DNA of 64,000 nt from an uncultured virus (IMG/VR IMGVR_UViG_3300028588_000802) (Duplodnaviria; Heunggongvirae; Uroviricota; Caudoviricetes), in IMG/VR virus record IMGVR_UViG_3300028588_000802; one strand, written 5' to 3'. Under the pieces are notes generated by a model. That model worked only from the letters and a program-made list of their open reading frames with translations. It did not search any database and was not told the origin of the DNA. The position numbers and the translations under genes are program-made. Shown here piece after piece: positions 1,119-63,689 of this stretch; the stretch's first letter is position 1, and every line of letters begins with the position of its first letter.

Positions 1119-1262
1119 CTGAATCCTGCCGCCTGCACCGGTTCTCCGGATGGCGAATTTCAGGAAGTCGAAACACCACTACACGCGACATCCCAACTTA
1201 ATCGTTGGCTTTGTCGGTAACGCAGGCGCCGCACTTCATCGCACACACGTGCATAGGCCAAC
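1119..1262 (+). ncRNA. conserved structured leader RNA, copy A (candidate cis-regulatory pseudoknot)
   Basis: CTGAA/TTCAG stem, GCC/GGC, hairpin CCGG-TTCT-CCGG, long-range GCCTGC(1131-36)/GCAGGC(1222-27); same layout at three other loci. Confidence 0.7.
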
Positions 1263-1282
1263 TTTTAAATTGGAGAATCACC

Positions 1283-2790: not shown

Positions 2791-2936
2791 CCAGCTCCCG
2801 CCGTCCGCGCCGAGGAATCGGTTTGGCAAACACTGGTCAGTAGTACTCTTTTGAAGACATTTTCCCAACATTCATTGTTGGCTTTGTCGGTAATGCGGAC
2901 GCTGTATCTTCATCGCACATTCGTGCATAGGCCAAC
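2791..2936 (+). ncRNA. conserved structured leader RNA, copy B
   Basis: CCAG/CTGG stem, GCC/GGC, hairpin CCGA-GGAA-TCGG, long-range GTCCGC(2803-08)/GCGGAC(2895-2900). Confidence 0.7.
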
Positions 2937-2956
2937 TTTTGAATTTGGAGAACCAC

Positions 2957-4228: not shown

Positions 4229-4249
4229 CCTATACTTGTCAGGACAACT
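4229..4249 (+). promoter_or_regulatory. GCTAYAC-N5-AGGMCAACT upstream motif (representative copy)
   Basis: CCTATAC-TTGTC-AGGACAACT, 15 nt before ATG 4265; about 29 copies in the window. Confidence 0.75.
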
Positions 4250-13076: not shown

Positions 13077-14108
13077 CTATCCGCGAGCGATTTTCTTCAC
13101 CGAGGGAGGGGATGGCGTCAGTATCAGGCCGGCCCGGTCGTAATTGACTTTGGCTTCCGGGTAGAGAACCAGGACGTCCTTCAGCGAACGCTTGAACCCC
13201 TCAATGAACTTGTGCTTCGCCGCCTCGGAGCCGAACTGCTGCATGAGTGCTTCCCAAGGCACTTTGGTTTCCCGAGTGATGCACGCATTGCGATATGAAA
13301 GCCAGCAATAGATGTCGATGGCCAAGGCTGAACTTGCCAAGCTCTTCACAATCCGCATATCGACCGGTACCGGGTTTTGCAGGATGTTCTCGTAGAACCG
13401 CTCTGACAGGACGACTTCCGATTGCCAGAACGATTGTTGGCCGGGGTGCGCTGGGTCCCAGAATGAGTCGAGGGACGATTCATCGGTAATACGAAAACCG
13501 GCATTCTTCCAGTTGGCGGCATTTGGGTCGGTCGTGATGGCAATTTGAGCGGCGAACAATCGTTGCATCTGGTTTTTCAGGAGCGTGATGGTACCCCGTT
13601 CGCCGCCCGTTACCCCGTGTTTACCGAGACCGGCCATGAATTGCACTAGGGAGTCTCCTAGCACGATAGTCCGTGAGGCCTTTTCGCTGTTCCGGTTCTT
13701 GACGACCTCGGTAGCAAGCCATGCCAAGATTAGCCGAGGGTATGCTCCGTAGGGGTAGCCGTAGCACATCAGCTCGTCCTTCATCGTCGGCTTGCCTCGA
13801 GCGTTGAGGACTTCTACACGTCGTTGGTAATAGCCTGGCTGAATCAGCATGCTTACGTTGCCACTAGTACGACCCCATGCGGCCGGAGGAGGATTTCCTT
13901 TCGGCTCGCGATAGGGCAGTGTCGCGTGAACGAGCCATCGAGCTACAAAGCTCAAATTGCCACTGCTGAGGGCATCTTCTTGCTCAAGCGCCAGTGCCTC
14001 TTGGGCGAGTTTTGCGAACTTCCGTTCTTTGGCTGCCAGCTGCTTGTTGGCATAGCTGTCCGGGTCCTTCGCCACAAGTTCCAGATGTGTCGGTTTCTTC
14101 GTCGTCAC
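13077..14108 (-). CDS. repA: plasmid replication initiator (RepA_C family)
   Basis: LVHATLPY, GYPYGAYPRLILAWLATE, PVPVDMR...SALAIDIYCWLSYR; adjacent iteron array. Confidence 0.9.
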   Translation of the reverse strand: MTTKKPTHLELVAKDPDSYANKQLAAKERKFAKLAQEALALEQEDALSSGNLSFVARWLVHATLPYREPKGNPPPAAWGRTSGNVSMLIQPGYYQRRVEVLNARGKPTMKDELMCYGYPYGAYPRLILAWLATEVVKNRNSEKASRTIVLGDSLVQFMAGLGKHGVTGGERGTITLLKNQMQRLFAAQIAITTDPNAANWKNAGFRITDESSLDSFWDPAHPGQQSFWQSEVVLSERFYENILQNPVPVDMRIVKSLASSALAIDIYCWLSYRNACITRETKVPWEALMQQFGSEAAKHKFIEGFKRSLKDVLVLYPEAKVNYDRAGLILTPSPPSVKKIARG

Positions 14109-14167
14109 AGCTAGCTTTCAGTAATCGTTTGAGTTGGGTCAATCTTACGTTTCCGTTTTTGTGCTGT

Positions 14168-15336
14168 CACGCAGATTTAGGGAGTGTGCGTCTCGCCTGT
14201 GTTCGTTTGGGCAGGTGTCCACAGCACGTCGGGACGTCCTATTGTTGAGTAAGAGAACCTACAAAACCTTAAAAGCATAACTACTTGAGAGCCGCTGAAA
14301 CGCAGGCCTGGTGCGGCTTTCAGCGGGTACCGGCTCCCTAAATCTGCGCAGCCCCTCCCTATTTCTGCGTTTCATCCTCCCAACATCTGCGTAATCCCCG
14401 CCCTAAATCTGCGTGAAGCCCTCCCTAAATCTGCGTGAAGATTTTTTTGTATCCACAGACTTATACACAACAGTTCAATCGTGCAGGGCCCAACTTGCGA
14501 TAAAGACTCCCTAAATCTGCGTAAACACGTATTTACGCGGCCACGAACGTAACGGTTTTTTCTAATTTTTCCCTAAATCTGCGTGACCTACCGACACGAA
14601 ACGTTGGCTTGGACGCGCGTGTTTGTCTGCTGTTTGAGTTCTGCTGGGCAAGCCGGCTGCAAAAATCCTCCCAAAATCTGCGTGGCTTCGTAGGAGGGCG
14701 GTGTAAGAGGGGACGCGCGAACAGCAACGCGGCGGCCGCGCAGATTTAGGGAGGATTCCCTGTCGAATAAGCGTTTGGACGGGGTGCAGGGGACCCACAC
14801 AAGAGCGTGTTATGTGCGGTACCTCACGCAGCATTTGGGAGGATTTCGGCACCTGTGGATTTCTCCTGCCGGATACGACCGGCACTGGGCCTGCGACGTC
14901 GTGCGCAGATTTAGGGAGGCGATTTACGCGCAGATTTAGGGAGGAATGAGGGAACCGCCATGGCTCCCTTTGCCTAACGGTACAGGGGAGAGCAGGGATA
15001 CCAGCCCGCCGCGGCAAATGACAAACAAGGTTCCGCGCAGATTTAGGGAGAAAACGGCTGAGCGGGGACGATGTTGTGCGCCGGCTTGGGAGACCAGATT
15101 CGGGAGGACAGGCCACGCAGATTTAGGGTGTACGGTGCCGAGACGGGTGTTTGCGGCGCCGAAATTAATGCTCCGGCGCACGCAGAATTAGGGAGGAATT
15201 GTCGGGATTCGCTGAATTGGCTCGCAGCAAAATGCGGTGTCTTGTGACCGGACGTGCTTCCCGAAGCTTGCTGGTTGTCACGCAGATAATGGGAGGATTT
15301 GGCTGCGACAGAAGCATTCCTCCCAAAATCTGCGTG
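14168..15336. repeat. iteron array / replication origin (oriV), unit TCCCTAAATCTGCG(T)
   Basis: About 18 copies: tandem at ~14335, 14356, 14378, 14400, 14422 (21-22 bp period); also ~14508, 14570, 14669, 15321; inverted at ~14168, 14738, 14826, 14903, 14928, 15035, 15114, 15179, 15279. Confidence 0.9.
14449..14469 (+). promoter_or_regulatory. two DnaA boxes
   Basis: GTATCCACA (14449-57) and TTATACACA (14461-69) next to the phased iterons. Confidence 0.7.
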
Positions 15337-25031: not shown

Positions 25032-25134
25032 GTACCTTCGTCACGTGATTAGCCCCGCCGCCGAGAGGTCGCGGGGTTTTTCGTTTGGGGTTGCTGCCTA
25101 CACTGCTCAGGACAACTCTTTTTAAGGATTCACC

Positions 25135-28893: not shown

Positions 28894-29007
28894 TTTGTTC
28901 CAATCCTGCTCAGCTTTGAGCAGGATTTTTTACGTCCGACCCCAGCAAGAAAAAACCCGCTCAGCATCGGCTAAGCGGGGAATAAAGCGAGGCTTTGCGG
29001 GCCTACG

Positions 29008-29655
29008 TTAGCGCACGAATGGCACCGGGGTCGGGCTGTACGTTTCAGCCATCTGCAGTACGACATTCGCCTGCTCGGGCTTCAGCCGGAGGTTCGTCCT
29101 GAGGTGGCTCTCGAAAGAGCGCACGCTTTCTTGGCGAGCGATTTCTGCTTCGCACGCGGCCAGGAACCGCTGACCTTCTTTGCCGCCGAGCCAGTGCATT
29201 ACTTGCTCCGCGACCTCGTAGTCCTCGAGGGACACCTTCCCACGTTCGAGAGGGCCACCTGGCGGCATCAGCAGGCGCTCGAGCGTGCGGTAACCGCCGT
29301 TGACAGACATCTTGCGGACTGTGTGTGCCGCCCACGCTTGGACGTAGGCGGTCTCACGACGCAAGACGTTCTCGGAGAGCTTTCGACCTTCAGCGAGCAC
29401 GGCGCGGCCCATATTGCAGCCGAGCCAGACAACGACGGTCGCGGCGACCGTTGCTGCACGTTCGGTCAACGGGAACGCATAGTCCGACAACACGCCCGAG
29501 AGCATGTAGTTGAACGGGTGGTCCGGGTTGCCATCGTCAGCCATGAACTTCTTCCAGGCCGAGTAAAACACCATCTCGCCGATTACATCTTCTCGGGGCG
29601 GGTACATCGGTTCGTTCTTGAATTGGGGCTGGTCCCAAATGTCGTCTGTTTCCAT
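29008..29655 (-). CDS. hypothetical protein, tandem paralogue 1
   Basis: high similarity to 29781..30428; own upstream motif and terminator. Confidence 0.75.
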   Translation of the reverse strand: METDDIWDQPQFKNEPMYPPREDVIGEMVFYSAWKKFMADDGNPDHPFNYMLSGVLSDYAFPLTERAATVAATVVVWLGCNMGRAVLAEGRKLSENVLRRETAYVQAWAAHTVRKMSVNGGYRTLERLLMPPGGPLERGKVSLEDYEVAEQVMHWLGGKEGQRFLAACEAEIARQESVRSFESHLRTNLRLKPEQANVVLQMAETYSPTPVPFVR

Positions 29656-29780
29656 TCCTTGTTCCTTCAAAAGAGTTGTCCTGTCCAGTGTAGCCACGCG
29701 CCGGCACCGGGCGCCGTCTAGCTTCTCAAAGAAAACCCGCTCAGCTTGCGCTGAACGGGGAATGAGACTGCAGGTTGCTG

Positions 29781-30428
29781 TTACTGGACGAACTGAACCG
29801 GCTTAGTGCTGTAGCCGGCCGCCATTCGCAGCGTCATCTCGACCGAAGTGGGCGAGAGGTTGAGGTTGACGGTCAGGTGACGTTTGAACTCCTCGACCTG
29901 CTGCTGGCGCTGGATTTCCGCTTCGCACGCGGCCAGGAACTTCTGACCGATGTCGCCGCCAAGCCAGAGCATGACACGCTCAGCGACCTCGAAGTCCTGC
30001 AAGGAAACGCCCTGAGTCGTCGGTCGCTCGCCTGGCGGCGTGAGCAGCAGTTCAAGGGTCCGGAAGCCTTCGTTGACCGCACTGTCGCGCATGTTATGTG
30101 CAGACCATGTGCTCAGGTAGACCTTGTCCCGGCGCATCCTGTGCTTGTCGGTGTTTTCTGCCGCATGAAGCATGTCGACGCCGCGGCGGCAACCAAGCCA
30201 GCAGATGACGGAAGCGGCAACTGTCGCTGCACGCTGCGACAGAGGAACGCCCGAGCTCATCAGGATTGTTCCCAGCTTATAGTTCGGCGCCTGGCGGCCC
30301 TCGCTATCTTGCGCGGTGTATGCCAGCCACGCATCGCGGAAGACGTGTTCACCGATGTTGCCGTCCCTTGGAGGCTGCATCGGCTGGTTGTCGAACTGGG
30401 CCAAGCATTCGACTTCTTGAGTTTCCAT
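29781..30428 (-). CDS. hypothetical protein, tandem paralogue 2
   Basis: shares PPR...IGE, RAATVAA..WLGC, WLGG..GQ.FLAACEAEI with paralogue 1. Confidence 0.75.
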   Translation of the reverse strand: METQEVECLAQFDNQPMQPPRDGNIGEHVFRDAWLAYTAQDSEGRQAPNYKLGTILMSSGVPLSQRAATVAASVICWLGCRRGVDMLHAAENTDKHRMRRDKVYLSTWSAHNMRDSAVNEGFRTLELLLTPPGERPTTQGVSLQDFEVAERVMLWLGGDIGQKFLAACEAEIQRQQQVEEFKRHLTVNLNLSPTSVEMTLRMAAGYSTKPVQFVQ

Positions 30429-30545
30429 CTGTACGTCCCTTCAAAATAGTTGTCCTGTCCAGTGTAGCGAAGCTTTGCCCAGTGCAAAAAGAAAAGCCCG
30501 CCAGATTGAGCTGGCGGGCAGAAGTAGTGCGGGCAGGGTGCCGGC

Positions 30546-45631: not shown

Positions 45632-46045
45632 CTACGCGGGCTTCACACTCAATTCGTACCAAGCGCACTCCGACGAAAAGTCGTTGTGGAACTCCCAGAC
45701 CGGGGCCAGGCCGTTATCCTTGGCCCACATCGCAAAATCTCCCCAATAGAAGCTCATCCGGTGCTTGAAGTTGGTGATAGGGACTTCGGAGCGAAGTGCT
45801 CCAATTAGCGAGGCAACCTCTAAGTTGGCGCCATTTCCGACTCGGATTCGACTCAGCGGCCGGCCCGCCAATATCTCATGCTTGAACAGCGATTTGGCGT
45901 TCGCGAAAAACGTTTCCACCAGTAACTCCTCGCGCTCCTGTCGAGCTTTCAGTTCTTCCTCGCTAGGCGGACCGGGCGGAGGAGCGCGGGTGCCCAGCGC
46001 CAGCCGGTGCGCCAGGATGTTACCGAGAGACTTGGAAGGGGTCAT
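45632..46045 (-). CDS. hypothetical protein, tandem paralogue 2
   Basis: paralogue of 45130..45549. Confidence 0.7.
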   Translation of the reverse strand: MTPSKSLGNILAHRLALGTRAPPPGPPSEEELKARQEREELLVETFFANAKSLFKHEILAGRPLSRIRVGNGANLEVASLIGALRSEVPITNFKHRMSFYWGDFAMWAKDNGLAPVWEFHNDFSSECAWYELSVKPA

Positions 46046-46140
46046 GGAGTCACGGGCGAGGTCGTCGTAAAGTGTTGCTCTATGCGAATATTATAGCACG
46101 AGCTCGTTTATAAAATTTTGCTATACAGAATAAGGCTCGG

Positions 46141-46275
46141 TCTGCGGCCATCCCCTTGCGCTGAGAAATCAGTACGGTAAACCAGCAGATGTTAGGACAA
46201 CACACACCCGGTCTTTTGCTAATAGCAGAAGCGAAGGTTCGACAAGGCAAGGACTCGACAAATGTTCGCTTCTGC
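46141..46275 (+). ncRNA. conserved structured leader RNA, copy C
   Basis: TCTGC/GCAGA stem, hairpin CTGA-GAAA-TCAG, long-range CCTTGC(46154-59)/GCAAGG(46247-52). Confidence 0.6.
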
Positions 46276-46294
46276 GAATTACAAAGGACACACC

Positions 46295-47203
46295 ATGAAT
46301 CAAGCAACTCTGAAATCGCGCGCAACCGTTATCGGTAAGGTCTTTGCCGCGAAAGGCATCACGCTCTCCCGGGCCGAGCAGCTCGACATCGTCGCGCAGC
46401 TCGAAGGGGCCCAGAACTGGCATCATGCTAGTGCTGAGGCGTCCTCGGCGCCGGCATCGGGGCTCCCTATCAACTTCAACTCCTTCCAAAAGGAGGCGGC
46501 ACGTGCCTACTGCGGAGGTGACTACGCAGACCGAACGGTGCTCGATGAAGGGCTGGAGCACTCCGATAGGCTGTTTGGCTTCGTTATCCGAGAAATCGGT
46601 GAAGCGGGGGAGGACGTGGGCGAAGCTGCCCGCGTAATCCAGCAAGCATCCGAGGAGCTGGCGGAAGTCGCAGCACATCTGGCCAACCTGGGCGCCAAGG
46701 CACATGCGCCTTTGCCATCAACCGGGGTAACTGGAACAGATGGCAAACGTTCGGCATGGACGTTCCAATTTTTGTCCAGCCGCGACGGCGAACCACTGTC
46801 GATGCGGGGTAAGGCACCGCACCTGCAGGCCTGGCTTGACACTGAGCAGGCCGCTTTCGATGCCATCCGGGAGACCTGTCTCGATGAAGAAGCTTTCGTA
46901 GCAGAGGTCAATGGCCAAATCGGCACTCTGTACGAGATGGAGATTGAGACGGCTAACTCGGATATTCCGGACGAACGGTTTCCTCGTTGCCCCGTTTCGG
47001 AGGAAGACCGCCATGCGCAGTTGCTGCGGGACATTCAGGACCTCGAGAAGCTGCACCCTTACGCTACCTGGGGCGTCGTCCATGCGAGTGCGGTCATTCC
47101 AATGAATCGACTAGGAGTGTGGGGGTTCATCCCGCATAGCCCGGACTTCGACAAGGAAAAGGCACGAGCGCTGCTCGAAAGCATGTACGAAAAGTTCTAT
47201 TAA
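46295..47203 (+). CDS. Glyoxalase_8-like N-terminal domain protein, paralogue C
   Basis: LKSRA...KGITLSRAEQLDIVAQLEGAQNWH. Confidence 0.65.
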   Translation: MNQATLKSRATVIGKVFAAKGITLSRAEQLDIVAQLEGAQNWHHASAEASSAPASGLPINFNSFQKEAARAYCGGDYADRTVLDEGLEHSDRLFGFVIREIGEAGEDVGEAARVIQQASEELAEVAAHLANLGAKAHAPLPSTGVTGTDGKRSAWTFQFLSSRDGEPLSMRGKAPHLQAWLDTEQAAFDAIRETCLDEEAFVAEVNGQIGTLYEMEIETANSDIPDERFPRCPVSEEDRHAQLLRDIQDLEKLHPYATWGVVHASAVIPMNRLGVWGFIPHSPDFDKEKARALLESMYEKFY

Positions 47204-47244
47204 TTCTCACCAAACCGCTGGTTCCCGCCGGCGGTTTTTCTTTA

Positions 47245-47949
47245 TCAGCTCAGCTTTTTAAATACGTACCAGGCGTCGTTAATCCCGTGGAACTGGACGT
47301 GGTCTTTGTTAAGCGCAGCCGACTCAATTTCCAAGTGTTCCCAGGCTTCGTTACGCAAGTATTCGAAGAAGTTGTCGTCCGCAGTGCAGCCGCCAATCTC
47401 GCCTTGATATACGAGCATCTGGCCAGACTTCATTGCCGAGGCTACCTCGAAAGCCAACGGGGAGCCGTGCTCGGGCCAAGAGAGGATGAGGGCATCGTAG
47501 GCCGTCACGTCGACCTTCCTGACGTCCTCGACCAGGTCGACCTTCCAGAAGGTGCGCCAATCCTGCTCTGTAGGCTCCAGCCCCGGAGGGAACACCTCGA
47601 GGGCCACGGTGCTCACGCCTTGCGCTGCAAGTGCGTGCGAGAGGAATCCGCCGCCGGAGCCTACGTCCAGTACCGACTTCCCCCGTAACAGGTCCGCGAG
47701 CGCCTCTACACACTCTTTCGAGAGCAGCACATAGCCATACTTGGCCCAGTACTTATCGCGGCCGAGGCCGAAGAGGAAATCCGTATTGAAGTCCTTCGGT
47801 GGCGGGTCAAAGTAACGGCGCCGGGCGGGATATGTCGAGGCCGGCTGCAGAGGTTCTATCTCGCGATGGATGGCCTCGACCATATCCGCCATCAGTTTCT
47901 GCTGTTCTGCCGAAGGAGCCTCGGGCATAATGTCTTCGCGCGTTGTCAT
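47245..47949 (-). CDS. class I SAM-dependent methyltransferase
   Basis: VLDVGSGGG motif I, LILSWP, YQGE.GGCTA. Confidence 0.75.
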   Translation of the reverse strand: MTTREDIMPEAPSAEQQKLMADMVEAIHREIEPLQPASTYPARRRYFDPPPKDFNTDFLFGLGRDKYWAKYGYVLLSKECVEALADLLRGKSVLDVGSGGGFLSHALAAQGVSTVALEVFPPGLEPTEQDWRTFWKVDLVEDVRKVDVTAYDALILSWPEHGSPLAFEVASAMKSGQMLVYQGEIGGCTADDNFFEYLRNEAWEHLEIESAALNKDHVQFHGINDAWYVFKKLS

Positions 47950-50425: not shown

Positions 50426-50465
50426 CCTAGTTTCTACACTGGTCAGGACAACTATCTCGGAGTAA

Positions 50466-59654: not shown

Positions 59655-61415
59655 TTAGTGCGAAACTCTCGGGCGGAGCATTTGAGATTCTGGGATGCGC
59701 AGTGACGTTTGGCGCTTTTCTACGAAGGCCTCGAAAGCGGAAGGCGCCAAAGGCACGCTGATGCAATAGCCCTGAATTTCGTCACAGGCGGTACTGCGCA
59801 GGAAGCTCAGGTGTTCCTCGGTCTCGACTCCTTCAGCAACGACCGTCAGGTTCAGCGAGTGGGCCAGGTTGATAATGGCTGTTGCCAGCTGCTCCGGGTT
59901 GATAGTCGGTGACCGTTGCTTAAGGAACGAGCGGTCGAGCTTCAAGCAGTCCAGGGGGAACAGGCTGAGGTAGGAGAGGGATGAGTACCCTGTGCCGAAA
60001 TCGTCGACCGCCAGGTGTACGCCGAGCTTCCTGAGTTCCGACAGGACTCCCACGGCCAGCTCTGTATCGGTCATCAGTGCGGTCTCCGTCAATTCCAGCT
60101 CCAGCTGGTCCGCATCGAGGCCGCTTGCCCGGAGGGCGTCCTCCACTGTTTCCAGAAGACGTCTGCTCTGGAGCTGTCGAGCCGACACGTTGACCGATAC
60201 TCGGAACGGACGCTTGTGGAGCTCTGACCAAGTCTTGGCCTGACGGGTAGCCTCTCGAAGCACCCACGCGCCAATCTGCTCAATAAGCCCGGCCTCTTCG
60301 GCAAGAGGTACAAAGCTAGCAGGCGAGACGGCGCCCAGTTCCGGATGATTCCAGCGAAGCAACGCTTCCATGCCGGCGATTTCCATGGTGCGCAGGTCTA
60401 CACGGGGCTGGTAGTGAATCTTGAACTCGCCGTTGTCCAAAGCTTGGCGCAGGGCACTCAGTAGCAGCATCCGCGACTGGGATTGCAGGCTCATCTCCGC
60501 ATCGTAGAAACGAAGGTGCAGCCCCGACTCGCGGCTGAGCTTCGCGGAATAGAGCGCCGTGTTCGCGCACTTGAGCAGGACTTCGCACGAATCACCATCT
60601 TGAGGAAACAAGCTGATGCCCATGGACGCAGTGATACCAATTTCGCGACCGCGAACAAGCATAGGCTGAGATAGCGCCTGTAGGACCTTCGAGGCAACTC
60701 GACTCGCGGAGGTGCGGCCGTTTCGGCATTCAGCGATGATGATGAATTCGTTACCTCCCAGGCGGGCAACTAAATCGTTCTCCCGGACAGTTGCGGCCAA
60801 GCGCTTTGCCACCTCTTGCAAGACGACGTCGCCGAATTCCATGCCCAGGCCTTCATTGATGGCCTTGAACCGGTCTAGGTCGAGAAACATGACGGCCTGC
60901 GCCATTTCGCCCCGCGGGTCGTTCAGCCGAAGTCGAAGCCGCTCCAAAACTGCTGTGCGCGTCGGGAGGCCCGTCAACGGGTCATACTTGGAGAAGTTCC
61001 TGAGGCGGGGAGTTTGGCGGTCAGAAACGTCAATGACGGCGCCGACGTAACCTTCCACCTGGCCCTGGCCGGTTAGCCGCGGTGCACCTGAGCTAACCAT
61101 CCAGCGCGTCGTTCCATCGGACTTGATGACCCGATACTCGACTTGATACTCTGTTCCCTGGGCGCGAGCATTTTCCAGCACCGCGCGTACATGCTTCACG
61201 TCGTCAGCGTGAATCACGCTCAACCAGTCGTCCAGACTGAGGGTCTCGATAGAATCGAGGCTTTCTCGTGCCCCTGGATTCAGGTAGATGTATGTCCCGG
61301 CCGCGTTCATCTCCCAAACAATCATCGAAGCGGTGTCTGCGAGGTTACGCAATGCACATTCACGTGAAACGTCGGGCGGATTAGTTTCTGTTGATTCTCG
61401 CAAGGTTTTTTCCAT
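59655..61415 (-). CDS. PAS-GGDEF-EAL protein (likely c-di-GMP phosphodiesterase)
   Basis: PAS domain, DLDRFK, degenerate GGNEF, intact EAL, DDFGTGYSSL, EGVE. Confidence 0.9.
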   Translation of the reverse strand: MEKTLRESTETNPPDVSRECALRNLADTASMIVWEMNAAGTYIYLNPGARESLDSIETLSLDDWLSVIHADDVKHVRAVLENARAQGTEYQVEYRVIKSDGTTRWMVSSGAPRLTGQGQVEGYVGAVIDVSDRQTPRLRNFSKYDPLTGLPTRTAVLERLRLRLNDPRGEMAQAVMFLDLDRFKAINEGLGMEFGDVVLQEVAKRLAATVRENDLVARLGGNEFIIIAECRNGRTSASRVASKVLQALSQPMLVRGREIGITASMGISLFPQDGDSCEVLLKCANTALYSAKLSRESGLHLRFYDAEMSLQSQSRMLLLSALRQALDNGEFKIHYQPRVDLRTMEIAGMEALLRWNHPELGAVSPASFVPLAEEAGLIEQIGAWVLREATRQAKTWSELHKRPFRVSVNVSARQLQSRRLLETVEDALRASGLDADQLELELTETALMTDTELAVGVLSELRKLGVHLAVDDFGTGYSSLSYLSLFPLDCLKLDRSFLKQRSPTINPEQLATAIINLAHSLNLTVVAEGVETEEHLSFLRSTACDEIQGYCISVPLAPSAFEAFVEKRQTSLRIPESQMLRPRVSH

Positions 61416-62839: not shown

Positions 62840-62985
62840 CAACAGCCTGCCGTCTGCGCCACCTCGGTGGTATGGCAAACGTTGGTTAAACCCCTCCCAA
62901 TTCGCAAACCCGCCTCGTAGGCACAAGGGTGAGCGGAGCAATGCAGACAGTTCCAAGGACATCATCATGACCATCGCCCTTGCGC
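62840..62985 (+). ncRNA. conserved structured leader RNA, copy D
   Basis: CAAC/GTTG stem, GCC/GGC, hairpin CCAC-CTCG-GTGG, long-range GTCTGC(62852-57)/GCAGAC(62943-48). Confidence 0.7.
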
Positions 62986-63002
62986 AAACAAGGAATAGAG
63001 AA

Positions 63003-63689
63003 ATGCACAACTCGCAACTGCAACTGAAGGACCTGTCGGAGAAGAACGCAAAGGCACTGGCAAGCTCGGTGACGAAGTTTTTGAAAGCTCATGGCATCGA
63101 GCTTCAACACACGAAGGCACTTGACCTGACTGGCACCCTCTGTGGATTCGGCAACTGGCAAGGCCTGCAGGCGGCCATCGTCAAGAAGGAAGAGGAGGAC
63201 GCGTCTAAGCCCATCATTATGAGCTACGACGAGTTCTTTGACACCTTCCGGCCTGTGAAAAACAAGCTGGACCCACATGCTCCGGCAGATGGGTATGGGT
63301 TTGAAACCTACGGCGCCGAGTGGGAAGCGGTTCAAGCTGCTCACGCTCGAGACCCCGGCACCGTCTGGACCGTCGTTGACGGCGAGGGCACTGCCTGGCT
63401 CTCCGAGGGGCTGCACTACGTGAACCGGGCGTTCTACTTCATCACCAGGAAGCCTGCGATTGCCGGCCGGGTCTACAACATCCCTTACGGGCATGAGGTA
63501 GGCGACCTGGCTTTTGAGATTTCGGTTATCAATCCGGACACGCAAGAGTCGGAAATTATCGACGTGCGCTATGGCGCTTCCGCTGAAGAGGTGCTGGCCG
63601 ATGCAAGTATCGACTACACCGAAGAAGTCGAAGGCGTTGTTGAAGAAGGCCAATCCCGAGTCATCATCGTAAAGCAGGTCGCACACTGA
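63003..63689 (+). CDS. Glyoxalase_8-like N-terminal domain protein, paralogue D
   Basis: AKALA...LKAHGIELQHTKALDL...GFGNWQGL; alternative in-frame ATG at 62967. Confidence 0.65.
   Translation: MHNSQLQLKDLSEKNAKALASSVTKFLKAHGIELQHTKALDLTGTLCGFGNWQGLQAAIVKKEEEDASKPIIMSYDEFFDTFRPVKNKLDPHAPADGYGFETYGAEWEAVQAAHARDPGTVWTVVDGEGTAWLSEGLHYVNRAFYFITRKPAIAGRVYNIPYGHEVGDLAFEISVINPDTQESEIIDVRYGASAEEVLADASIDYTEEVEGVVEEGQSRVIIVKQVAH

What the first reader, a model, noticed from the sequence alone, without database searches (positions are those of the whole stretch)
46120..47203. Most divergent copy (C) of the leader RNA, with a perfect alternative helix that suggests a conformational switch
Seen: primary sequence differs strongly from copies A and B, yet the main helices are kept (CCTTGC/GCAAGG, CTGA-GAAA-TCAG). 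The 3' arm of the second hairpin, GCAGAAGCGAA (46225-35), is exactly complementary to TTCGCTTCTGC (46265-75) just upstream of the RBS, so two mutually exclusive folds are possible. The same competing pairing exists in D (62921-32 with 62974-85, 11 of 12 pairs) and in A and B (GTTGGC with GCCAAC before the RBS). Inference: a riboswitch-like expression platform controlling translation or transcription.
Basis: partly seen in the sequence, partly recalled or inferred. Interest (0 to 1): 0.8.

Follow-up and report, generated by a model that had tools for sequence, protein, structure and literature searches.

The report
New structured leader RNA gating translation
The stretch is the long 5' untranslated leader of one gene and belongs to an undescribed family of folded leader RNAs that hide the ribosome-binding site, found in front of every gene of one protein family on three large plasmid-like replicons.

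Summary

The region 46134-46294 is the roughly 160-nt 5' UTR of a single-gene unit (CDS 46295-47203, terminator 47212-47237). It belongs to an RNA family with no Rfam match.

I found the same architecture upstream of 19 of 19 genes examined that carry the N-terminal part of Pfam PF20066:
- 4 in the window
- 8 on Variovorax sp. WDL1 plasmid 2
- 7 on Variovorax sp. PBL-H6 plasmid 2

The architecture has three parts:
- A 5' stem-loop domain (P1-P2-P3).
- A long 3' hairpin whose base pairs the Shine-Dalgarno sequence.
- A 6-bp long-range helix (LR) joining an internal loop of the 5' domain to the apical loop of the 3' hairpin.

The LR helix is Watson-Crick in 72 of 72 cells across 12 copies. In the 11-copy alignment, 5 of its 6 pairs change on both sides.

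A competing local hairpin exists in most copies (combined p 2e-5). A second fold of nearly equal energy exists in 10 of 11 copies, but not in C, which is locked shut.

Translation control is well supported. A true switch, and its trigger, remain inferred. No leader terminator common to the four window copies was seen.

The parts
46121..46126 (+). Promoter-like core CTATAC, of the same type as the 25 CTAYAC-N5-AGGACAAC motifs in the window. The transcript start is inferred a few bases downstream.
   Evidence: In run X3 position 46124 reads C, giving CTACAC. The start site is inferred, not mapped.
46141..46189 (+). 5' domain of leader C. P1 is 46141-45/46185-89. P2 is 46152-53/46176-77. P3 is 46161-64/46169-72 with a GAAA loop. 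The internal-loop strand CCUUGC (LR 5') is at 46154-59.
46154..46159 (+). LR 5' strand (CCUUGC).
   Evidence: It pairs with 46247-52. LR is Watson-Crick in 72 of 72 cells in 12 copies.
46190..46210 (+). C/A-rich linker containing AGGACAAC (46194-46201).
   Evidence: No conserved pairing was found. A role as a ribosome standby site is speculative.
46211..46289 (+). Long 3' hairpin. The lower stem 46211-18/46282-89 pairs the SD AAGGA (46284-88). The middle stem is 46220-23/46278-81. The apical hairpin Ha is 46239-42/46255-58.
46247..46252 (+). LR 3' strand (GCAAGG) in the 12-nt loop of Ha, preceded by CAAG (format YAAN). It overlaps an upstream SD-like AAGGA at 46249-53.
46213..46231 (+). It is mutually exclusive with the lower and upper stems.
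   Evidence: -7.8 kcal/mol, 4.5% of shuffles as good
46262..46264 (+). In-frame upstream ATG with its own AAGGA 8 nt before. A possible alternative start, not conserved in the Variovorax copies.
46295..47203 (+). CDS of paralogue C. The N-terminus matches the N-terminal part of PF20066. The rest has no family or fold match.
47212..47237 (+). Intrinsic-terminator-like hairpin followed by a T run, closing the single-gene unit.
1119..1282 (+). Leader copy A (LR 1131-36/1222-27; SD 1272-75; CDS from 1283).
2791..2956 (+). Leader copy B (LR 2803-08/2895-2900; SD 2947-50; CDS from 2957).
62840..63002 (+). Leader copy D (LR 62852-57/62943-48; SD 62990-94; CDS from 63003; in-frame upstream ATG at 62967).

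Best explanation
Positions about 46134-46294 are the 5' untranslated leader of the mRNA for gene C. It is one member of a previously undescribed family of structured leaders, roughly 150-190 nt long.

The RNA folds into two domains:
- A 5'-terminal stem-loop domain (P1, P2, an asymmetric internal loop, and P3 closed by a 4-5-nt loop).
- A long interrupted hairpin whose bottom helix pairs the Shine-Dalgarno sequence with a pyrimidine-rich segment about 75 nt upstream.

Six bases of the internal loop pair with six bases shown in the apical loop of the long hairpin. That loop has the format YAAN-[6 nt]-A. The pairing ties the two domains together, either as a kissing or pseudoknot contact or, alternatively, as the closing helix of a second fold.

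The default state hides the ribosome-binding site, so the leader sets or gates translation initiation of the downstream gene.

Shown:
- The helices and their covariation.
- SD pairing in the predicted folds.
- The strict linkage to genes with the PF20066 N-terminal module.

Inferred:
- That translation is the controlled step.
- That something opens the lock. Candidates are a protein (possibly the product's own conserved N-terminal module), a metastable co-transcriptional fold, or a small ligand.
For: LR helix:
- On a MAFFT alignment made without structure information, 66 of 66 cells are Watson-Crick.
- 5 of 6 pairs changed on both sides, with no one-sided change.
- Sliding the 3' partner drops pairing to 26-40%.
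- With the 12th copy the count is 72 of 72, in 9 different sequences. A 10th variant (GUUUGC/GCAAAC) is on the PBL-H6 plasmid.
- Per-copy chance of the 6-mer complement is 1.5-5.5%.
- Spacing is 78-114 nt, and 91-93 nt in the window copies.

5' domain:
- 85% of cells are paired against 65% in shuffles (0 of 500 shuffles as high).
- 8 of 11 pairs have changes on both sides.
- P1 has 12 different sequences at the same place. Positional consistency in the four window copies was reached by 7 of 20000 shuffles.

3' hairpin:
- Present in all 12 copies. The SD is paired by the long hairpin in 11 and by a small local hairpin in V155.
- z-scores are -1.67, -2.20, -2.61 and -5.39 for A, B, D and C.

Strand: G.U pairs occur on the sense strand only.

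Linkage to PF20066-module genes:
- 4 of 4 in the window.
- 8 of 8 on Variovorax WDL1 plasmid 2.
- 7 of 7 on PBL-H6 plasmid 2. The detector's background is about 10 false hits per 128 kb.

Unit structure:
- Promoter-like core before the leader and a terminator-like hairpin after each window gene (for C; read by eye for A, B and D).
- Other genes with the same core have leaders of only 10-25 nt.

Control: of 145 outside matches to the primary-sequence pattern (25 viral, 120 metagenomic), none had both P3 and the LR complement.

Weak support: an RNA-library contig covers 46212-46362. DNA carry-over is not excluded.
Against: - No experiment and no mapped transcript start. The promoter assignment rests on a repeated motif.
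- Single-sequence folding of whole leaders is barely better than shuffles (z -0.67 to -1.75).
- P2 hardly varies (GCC/GGC), so it is untested by covariation. It is imperfect in C, V148, V152 and V154.
- The family was found in only three replicons, two of them close relatives.
- The covariance model of the 5' domain detects non-training members poorly. V155 scores 20 bits, level with a likely false hit, and V158 is missed.
- SD pairing is a thermodynamic prediction. In several copies mean P(SD unpaired) is 0.26-0.42 even in the closed fold.
- C and D have a second in-frame start upstream, so which AUG is used is unsettled.
Confidence: 0.72

Rival explanations
1. Bistable switch. The leader alternates between two folds. 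In the closed two-domain fold the long hairpin forms and the SD is paired. In the second fold LR is an ordinary nested helix closing a multiloop, the 5' arm of the long hairpin folds back on itself (the 'second hairpin'), and the SD is more exposed. A factor, or the order of transcription, decides which fold is populated.
For: - The LR-nested fold lies between 6.3 kcal/mol more stable and 1.2 kcal/mol less stable than the two-domain fold in 10 of 11 copies, and is the free MFE in V151. It was also the MFE for A and B over a slightly different stretch.
- Mean P(SD unpaired) is 0.44 in the nested fold against 0.26. It is higher in 8 copies, equal in 2 and lower in 1 (Wilcoxon p 0.02).
- The 40 nt upstream of Ha self-fold better than shuffles in 10 of 11 copies (Fisher p 2.4e-5).
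- Ha and nested LR cannot coexist, yet both are supported: Ha stems with different sequences pair in A-D and appear in the folds of most V copies; LR is 72 of 72.
Against: - The nested fold's own helices cannot be aligned column by column, so they have no covariation test.
- D's competing hairpin is no better than chance (p 0.40).
- In A, B and D the SD stays largely paired in both folds.
- In C the closed fold wins by 12.6 kcal/mol.
- Every strongly supported helix is compatible with one pseudoknotted fold.
- The energy model ignores the kissing contact, which would favour the closed fold further.
Confidence: 0.35
2. Autogenous or family-wide protein control. The conserved N-terminal module shared by all the downstream proteins, or another replicon-encoded protein, binds the leader and shifts it between open and closed. 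The suggested site is the 5' domain or its junction with Ha. This would resemble ribosomal-protein leaders or phage Mu Com acting on mom mRNA (both recalled, not tested here).
For: - 19 of 19 leaders precede genes with the PF20066 N-terminal module, while the C-terminal parts differ.
- Few conserved unpaired bases, as is typical of protein sites rather than metabolite pockets.
- The downstream genes have no metabolic annotation.
Against: - The leader and the module are adjacent on the DNA, so duplication alone links them.
- There is no evidence that the module binds RNA.
- The AlphaFold2 model is poor in that region (pLDDT 29-52 for residues 1-70).
- There is no solved relative.
Confidence: 0.25
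3. Metabolite- or ion-sensing riboswitch. The 5' domain together with the LR contact would form an aptamer, and the long hairpin would be its expression platform.
For: - The two-part layout, a pseudoknot-like contact and SD sequestration are the layout of several translational riboswitch classes (recalled).
- An alternative pairing exists.
Against: - Only about 12 invariant or near-invariant columns in the 5' domain, mostly paired.
- The LR strands vary freely (10 variants).
- No link to metabolic or transport genes.
- No Rfam similarity even at E 10.
Confidence: 0.1
4. Fixed structural element without regulation. The fold only stabilises the mRNA through its 5'-terminal stem-loop, and holds translation of a dose-sensitive protein at a constant low level.
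For: - The 5' domain begins within about 10-25 nt of the inferred start.
- All supported helices fit a single fold.
- C is locked closed.
Against: - A 6-bp tertiary contact with a conserved loop format, plus self-folding 5' arms, is more than stability or damping would need.
- This cannot be excluded with sequence data alone.
Confidence: 0.2

Closest known systems
Pseudoknot-dependent translation control of rep genes in IncI-alpha, IncB and IncL/M plasmids (ColIb-P9 repZ; pMU604 repA)
   Same: - A plasmid-borne mRNA leader.
- A hairpin loop pairs with a distant segment of the same leader.
- The ribosome-binding site is buried in secondary structure.

I saw only the titles of Asano & Mizobuchi 1998 (J Biol Chem 273:11815) and Athanasopoulos et al. 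1999 (PMC93579), in the reference list of PMC10724649. The mechanism itself is recalled.
   Different: - Those systems need a translated leader peptide and an antisense RNA, and they control a replication initiator.
- Here no conserved leader ORF exists (read).
- No antisense RNA signal was seen; I did not run a dedicated antisense-promoter scan.
- The genes are not rep genes.
- The distant partner is an internal loop of a separate 5' domain, not a site next to the RBS.
Translational riboswitches with a pseudoknot that hides the SD (SAM-II, preQ1-II classes; recalled)
   Same: Long-range pairing combined with SD occlusion in a 5' UTR.
   Different: - No Rfam match.
- No conserved pocket.
- No metabolic gene context.
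- Much larger, and built from two domains.
E. coli rpsO (S15) autoregulatory leader (recalled)
   Same: Equilibrium between hairpins and a pseudoknot around the RBS, with the protein product as proposed effector.
   Different: - No sequence or family relation.
- Protein binding here is pure inference.
HIV-1 DIS-type kissing loops (recalled)
   Same: A loop of 9-12 nt in which six pairing bases are flanked by unpaired adenines. Here the format is YAAN-[6 nt]-A(A) in 12 of 12 copies.
   Different: - Here the partner is an internal loop of the same molecule, not a second hairpin.
- Only one of ten LR variants is self-complementary.
Single-strand promoters (Frpo/ssi) of plasmid leading regions (recalled)
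   Same: Structured DNA or RNA upstream of plasmid genes of unknown function.
   Different: - Those are long DNA hairpins that rebuild -35 and -10 boxes.
- Here a promoter-like core lies upstream of the structure.
- The helices are short, with a tertiary-type contact.
- The element ends at an SD.

Membership tests
Any Rfam 15 family | Covariance-model score at or above the family's gathering threshold | tested here: not met
   - 0 matches in the whole window at gathering thresholds.
- 0 matches at E up to 10 on 46050-46350.
- On 8 Variovorax loci the only row is an unrelated ctRNA_p42d match at 22.6 bits against a cut-off of 50, away from the leader.
Riboswitch (ligand-sensing) | Aptamer with a block of highly conserved, mostly unpaired nucleotides | tested here: not met
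   In the 12-copy alignment of the 5' domain there are 7 invariant and 5 near-invariant columns, most of them inside P2, P3 or LR.
Riboswitch (ligand-sensing) | Expression platform with mutually exclusive pairings that involve the SD or a terminator | tested here: inconclusive
   - The SD is paired in the closed fold in all copies.
- An alternative fold lies within about 6 kcal/mol in 10 of 11 copies and exposes the SD more in 8 of 11.
- No terminator common to the four window copies was seen (A and B have a T run after the upper stem).
Riboswitch (ligand-sensing) | Association with genes for metabolism or transport of the ligand | tested here: not met
   All 19 downstream genes carry the PF20066 N-terminal module and are otherwise uncharacterised.
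IncI-alpha/IncB-type pseudoknot control | Translated leader peptide whose translation opens the structure | tested here: not met
   - Leader ORFs are not conserved. A has a 46-codon frame from 1150, D has 5 codons from 62872, and B and C have none at that place (read).
- The upstream in-frame ATG occurs only in C and D.
IncI-alpha/IncB-type pseudoknot control | Antisense RNA gene opposite the leader | not tested
   The consensus scan of 45900-47400 found no promoter-like site on either strand. No dedicated search was made in the other copies.
RNA thermometer (ROSE, fourU; recalled definitions) | A short, marginally stable SD hairpin with mismatches or G.U pairs that melts near 37-42 C | tested here: not met
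   The 3' hairpins fold at -20.7 to -42.2 kcal/mol, with 6-11-bp upper stems.
The leader family described here (working definition) | LR 6-mer complement 78-114 nt apart, with the 3' strand preceded by YAAN and lying 40-62 nt before the ATG | tested here: met
   12 of 12 copies, including C. The signature was also found before 7 of 7 PF20066 genes on PBL-H6 plasmid 2.
The leader family described here (working definition) | P1-P2-P3 5' domain, and a long hairpin pairing the SD | tested here: met

The most novel reading that the evidence does not exclude
The leader and the N-terminal module encoded right behind it form one self-regulating RNA-protein cassette that megaplasmids reuse in front of different C-terminal payloads.

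The module, or a replicon factor, would read the junction between the internal loop and the kissing loop. The copy-specific 6-bp LR 'address' (10 variants) would keep paralogous mRNAs from cross-talking. The self-folding 5' arm would make each transcript translatable only for a short period during or after synthesis.

This would be a new class of bistable leader RNA with a protein effector.
Probability: 0.2. Interest if true: 0.85.

Novelty: new variant of a known kind. Interest (0 to 1): 0.72.

Why it matters
Covariation this clean is rare outside curated RNA families: a 6-bp long-range helix that is Watson-Crick in 72 of 72 cells, in nine sequence variants among those 12 copies (a tenth on the PBL-H6 plasmid). 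This family has no Rfam match, and I found no paper on it. The two literature searches that could have shown one gave nothing relevant.

- **A regulatory layer on unstudied replicons.** The leader marks post-transcriptional control on very large Burkholderiales plasmids or chromids, whose genes are mostly of unknown function.
- **A handle on PF20066.** It gives a first lead on the N-terminal module of PF20066, which has no assigned role.
- **A compact test system.** It can be used to ask how an internal-loop to hairpin-loop contact cooperates with an SD-hiding hairpin, and whether the result is a lock, a timer or a switch.
- **A search recipe.** Looking for a PF20066 gene plus the LR signature upstream finds members that a covariance model of the 5' domain misses.

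Tried and rejected
**Database identity**
- Rfam: nothing.
- DNA of the region against phage and plasmid records: no match.
- Protein C against phages and plasmids: no match.
- Protein A against plasmids: only two weak C-terminal hits.

**DNA of homologues from the large collections**
- Six protein-based scans found no true relative: genome contigs twice, metagenome contigs once, viral contigs three times.
- Homologues P0002-P0027 are therefore known only as proteins.
All were chance. One checked case lies inside a capsid-like ORF on the other strand.

**Other searches**
- The genome search around a named genus was not possible without a genome handle.
- tblastn with a 70-aa module found only the four Variovorax plasmids.
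- No PF20066 gene was found on Ralstonia insidiosa pB1902 or on the Methylomonas plasmid.
- Earlier findings of this scan: none.

**Function of protein C**
- No PADLOC hit and no meaningful NCBIfam hit.
- No PDB sequence match.
- AlphaFold2 model mean pLDDT 67; Foldseek found nothing at E below 0.001.

**Read laying**
- The table of differences was cut (44 rows not shown), so run X4's changes inside the leader could not be read.
- X5 and X12 cover only parts of the stretch. I draw nothing from the uncovered parts.

**Ideas considered and rejected**
- Leader peptide or attenuation: ORFs are not conserved.
- Intrinsic terminator in the leader: A and B have a U run after the upper stem, but C and D do not.
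- CsrA/RsmA-type GGA sites: the P3 loops are not consistently GGA.
- ssDNA promoter or DNA cruciform: the wobble pairs are strand-specific.
- Literature search for the promoter motif strings returned only primer coincidences.
Full report
**1. The observation**

- GCAGAAGCGAA (46225-35) and TTCGCTTCTGC (46265-75) are perfect reverse complements.
- CCTTGC (46154-59) and GCAAGG (46247-52), and CTGA-GAAA-TCAG (46161-72), are where stated.
- In D, 62921-32 against 62974-85 gives 10 Watson-Crick pairs, one G.U and one mismatch.
- In A and B, GTTGGC/GCCAAC extends to 8 bp.

The 96 nt from 46205 to 46300 fold at -33.1 kcal/mol, z -5.39, with 0 of 200 shuffles as good. In that fold the 11-bp helix is the upper part of a 23-bp interrupted hairpin. 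The bottom of the hairpin (46211-18 with 46282-89) pairs the Shine-Dalgarno AAGGA at 46284-88. Whole leaders folded one at a time are only weakly better than chance (z -0.67 to -1.75).

**2. Setting**

The window (GC 58%) has no DNA match in the phage or plasmid collections.
- It carries a RepA_C gene with iteron-like repeats. That RepA is 56% identical to RepA of Ralstonia insidiosa plasmids.
- The protein of gene D is on record on a contig of 1.12 Mb. The replicon is therefore a very large plasmid or chromid.
- About 25 copies of a compact motif, CTAYAC-N5-AGGACAAC, lie 10-25 nt before ribosome-binding sites on both strands. I read it as the replicon's usual promoter-like element.

Four genes stand out: A from 1283, B from 2957, C from 46295 and D from 63003.
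- Each has the CTAYAC core.
- Each then has a leader placing the ATG 174-200 nt after the core.
- Each has its own terminator-like hairpin (for C; by eye for the others).
- Their proteins share only an N-terminal stretch of about 60 residues. It matches the N-terminal part of Pfam PF20066 (E 2.7e-7 to 1.4e-3; only A is above the curated cut-off). The rest differs.
- A profile of that stretch finds no fifth gene in the window.

**3. The 5' domain**

The four leaders align over about 52 nt.
- P3 is a 4-bp hairpin with a 4-nt loop: CCGG/CCGG, CCGA/UCGG, CUGA/UCAG and CCAC/GUGG.
- P1 is CUGAA/UUCAG, CCAG/CUGG, UCUGC/GCAGA and CAAC/GUUG, always starting 19-20 nt before P3. Only 7 of 20000 shuffles gave such positional consistency.
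- P2 is GCC/GGC (UCC/GGU in C).
- A covariance model of this domain scores the four copies at 49.6-58.4 bits, which is by construction. The next-best site in the window scores 11.8 bits.

**4. The long-range helix**

The 6 nt just before P3 are the exact reverse complement of 6 nt lying 91-93 nt downstream in all four copies:

| Copy | LR 5' | LR 3' |
|---|---|---|
| A | GCCUGC | GCAGGC |
| B | GUCCGC | GCGGAC |
| C | CCUUGC | GCAAGG |
| D | GUCUGC | GCAGAC |

The chance per copy is 1.5-5.5%. The 3' strand always lies in the loop of a small hairpin (Ha) at the tip of the long 3' hairpin.

**5. Relatives outside the window**

Protein homologues exist: 6 for C and 19 for D. Their DNA could not be fetched. 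A strict primary-sequence pattern found only chance matches: 0 of 145 had both P3 and the LR complement.

A weak tblastn hit of D's N-terminus led to Variovorax sp. WDL1 plasmid 2 (816 kb). Upstream of that gene lies the same architecture, including a CTATAC core.
- Scanning the plasmid with the model gave 10 matches at E up to 1, of which I accept 7.
- A Pfam scan of the plasmid gave 8 PF20066 matches. Seven are those same genes.
- The eighth gene, missed by the model, has the leader on inspection, with LR GCUCUC/GAGAGC.
- All seven downstream ORFs tested match PF20066. Six match at the N-terminus. One matches at residues 106-148, with E 0.006.

On Variovorax sp. PBL-H6 plasmid 2, a simple detector (LR complement, YAAN before the 3' strand, hairpin after the 5' strand) found the signature before 7 of 7 PF20066 matches.
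- One of these has a new LR variant, GUUUGC/GCAAAC.
- The same detector gives 10 false hits in the 128 kb of both window strands, about 5% per 680-nt upstream region.

The total is 19 of 19 genes in three replicons. Two of the replicons are closely related, so they are not independent.

**6. Covariation counts**

On a MAFFT alignment of 11 full leaders, made without any structure input, the LR columns pair in 66 of 66 cells.
- 5 of 6 pairs changed on both sides.
- There is no one-sided change and no mispair.
- Sliding the partner by 1-3 columns gives 26-40% pairing.
- With the 12th copy the count is 72 of 72.

The 5' domain was counted on a model-fitted alignment of 10 copies, which leans towards the model.
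- 85% of cells are paired against 65% in shuffles (0 of 500 as high).
- 8 of 11 pairs have changes on both sides.
- P1 has 12 different sequences. 10 of 12 have at least 4 contiguous Watson-Crick pairs within the segment. The other two are CCUGG/CCGGG, with a G.U, and GCUG/CAGC, which runs one base past the segment end.

The Ha loop reads YAAN-[LR 3']-A(A) in 12 of 12 copies. In all 12 copies the 3' domain folds as a long hairpin with LR 3' at its tip. The SD is paired by the base of that hairpin in 11 copies. In V155 it is paired by a small local hairpin that also covers the AUG.

**7. Which start codon**

C and D each have a second, in-frame ATG with its own AAGGA, 33 and 36 nt upstream (46262 and 62967), inside the apical part of the hairpin.
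- Some homologues were called from it.
- None of the Variovorax copies examined has one.
- The Met at the downstream start is invariant in C's family.
- The distance from LR to ATG fits the other copies only for the downstream start.

I take 46295 as the main start and leave dual initiation open.

**8. One fold or two**

All strongly supported helices use different nucleotides, so a single pseudoknotted fold can hold them all.
- If LR is forced as a nested helix, Ha and the long hairpin are excluded. The resulting fold lies between 6.3 kcal/mol more stable and 1.2 kcal/mol less stable than the two-domain fold in 10 of 11 copies. It exposes the SD more in 8 copies, equally in 2 and less in 1 (means 0.44 against 0.26).

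Several points argue against it.
- The energy model cannot credit the kissing contact to the closed fold.
- D's competing hairpin is at chance level.
- In A, B and D the SD stays largely paired in both folds.
- C is closed by 12.6 kcal/mol.

I put the switch at about one in three.

**9. Mechanism and comparison**

What is best supported is a cis-acting leader that hides the ribosome-binding site and so governs translation initiation. No terminator-like hairpin common to the four window leaders was seen (A and B have a T run after the upper stem), so I drop transcription control.

A metabolite riboswitch is unlikely. There are few conserved unpaired bases, the LR strands vary freely, and there is no metabolic context.

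The strict linkage to one protein module makes control by that module, or by another replicon factor, the most attractive effector. Adjacency on the DNA explains the linkage equally well.

The closest described systems are the pseudoknot-dependent rep leaders of IncI-alpha, IncB and IncL/M plasmids. I saw only their titles, in a reference list. They share the idea of a loop pairing at a distance within a plasmid leader. They differ in needing a leader peptide and an antisense RNA.

**10. Verdict**

Copy C is its most tightly closed member.

Noticed in passing
whole window, e.g. 4230-4248, 25098-25116, 50434-50452, 45078-45060(-): A 19-20-nt motif CTAYAC-N5-AGGACAAC occurs 25 times on both strands (at most 2 mismatches in the second half). 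Each copy lies 10-25 nt before an SD and ATG, with no conserved -35. It is a compact promoter-like element. The same CTATAC core precedes the leaders on the Variovorax plasmids.
   Followed up: partly
13080-14108 (-) and 14167-15147: A RepA_C replication gene, with RepA 56% identical to that of Ralstonia insidiosa plasmids. It is flanked by iteron-like repeats (CGCAGATTTAGGGAG) in both orientations.
   Followed up: partly
46008-46129: A related strain (coded run X3) has one contig (to 46876) with 22 differences over 45950-46876. At least 21 of them lie in 46008-46129, so at most one lies to the right of 46130. This is a mosaic joint at the promoter core. Position 46124 reads C there, turning CTATAC into CTACAC.
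   Followed up: no
46262 and 62967: Copies C and D each carry a second in-frame ATG with its own AAGGA, inside the apical part of the 3' hairpin. Some homologues are annotated from it. Two protein isoforms are possible.
   Followed up: partly
63003-63689 (gene D): The protein collection lists this protein on a contig of 1,119,147 bases, so the replicon is over 1.1 Mb. Residues 66-162 resemble hypothetical proteins on Vibrio, Methylomonas and Sphingopyxis megaplasmids.
   Followed up: no
59658-61415 (-): A PAS-GGDEF-EAL signalling protein. Nearby are two SprT-like genes, an HD-domain gene and a calcineurin-like phosphoesterase. Most other ORFs in the window have no family.
   Followed up: no
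29008-30449: Two adjacent divergent units share about 79-84% identical stretches (29132-29235 with 29905-30008; 28952-28983 with 29732-29763). This is a local duplication of a gene with its terminator.
   Followed up: no
46190-46210; 1164-1190; 62885-62912: The linker between the two RNA domains is poor in G and rich in C and A in copies A, C and D (for example ACACACACCC). It may be a single-stranded landing site for the ribosome. B's linker is U-rich instead.
   Followed up: no
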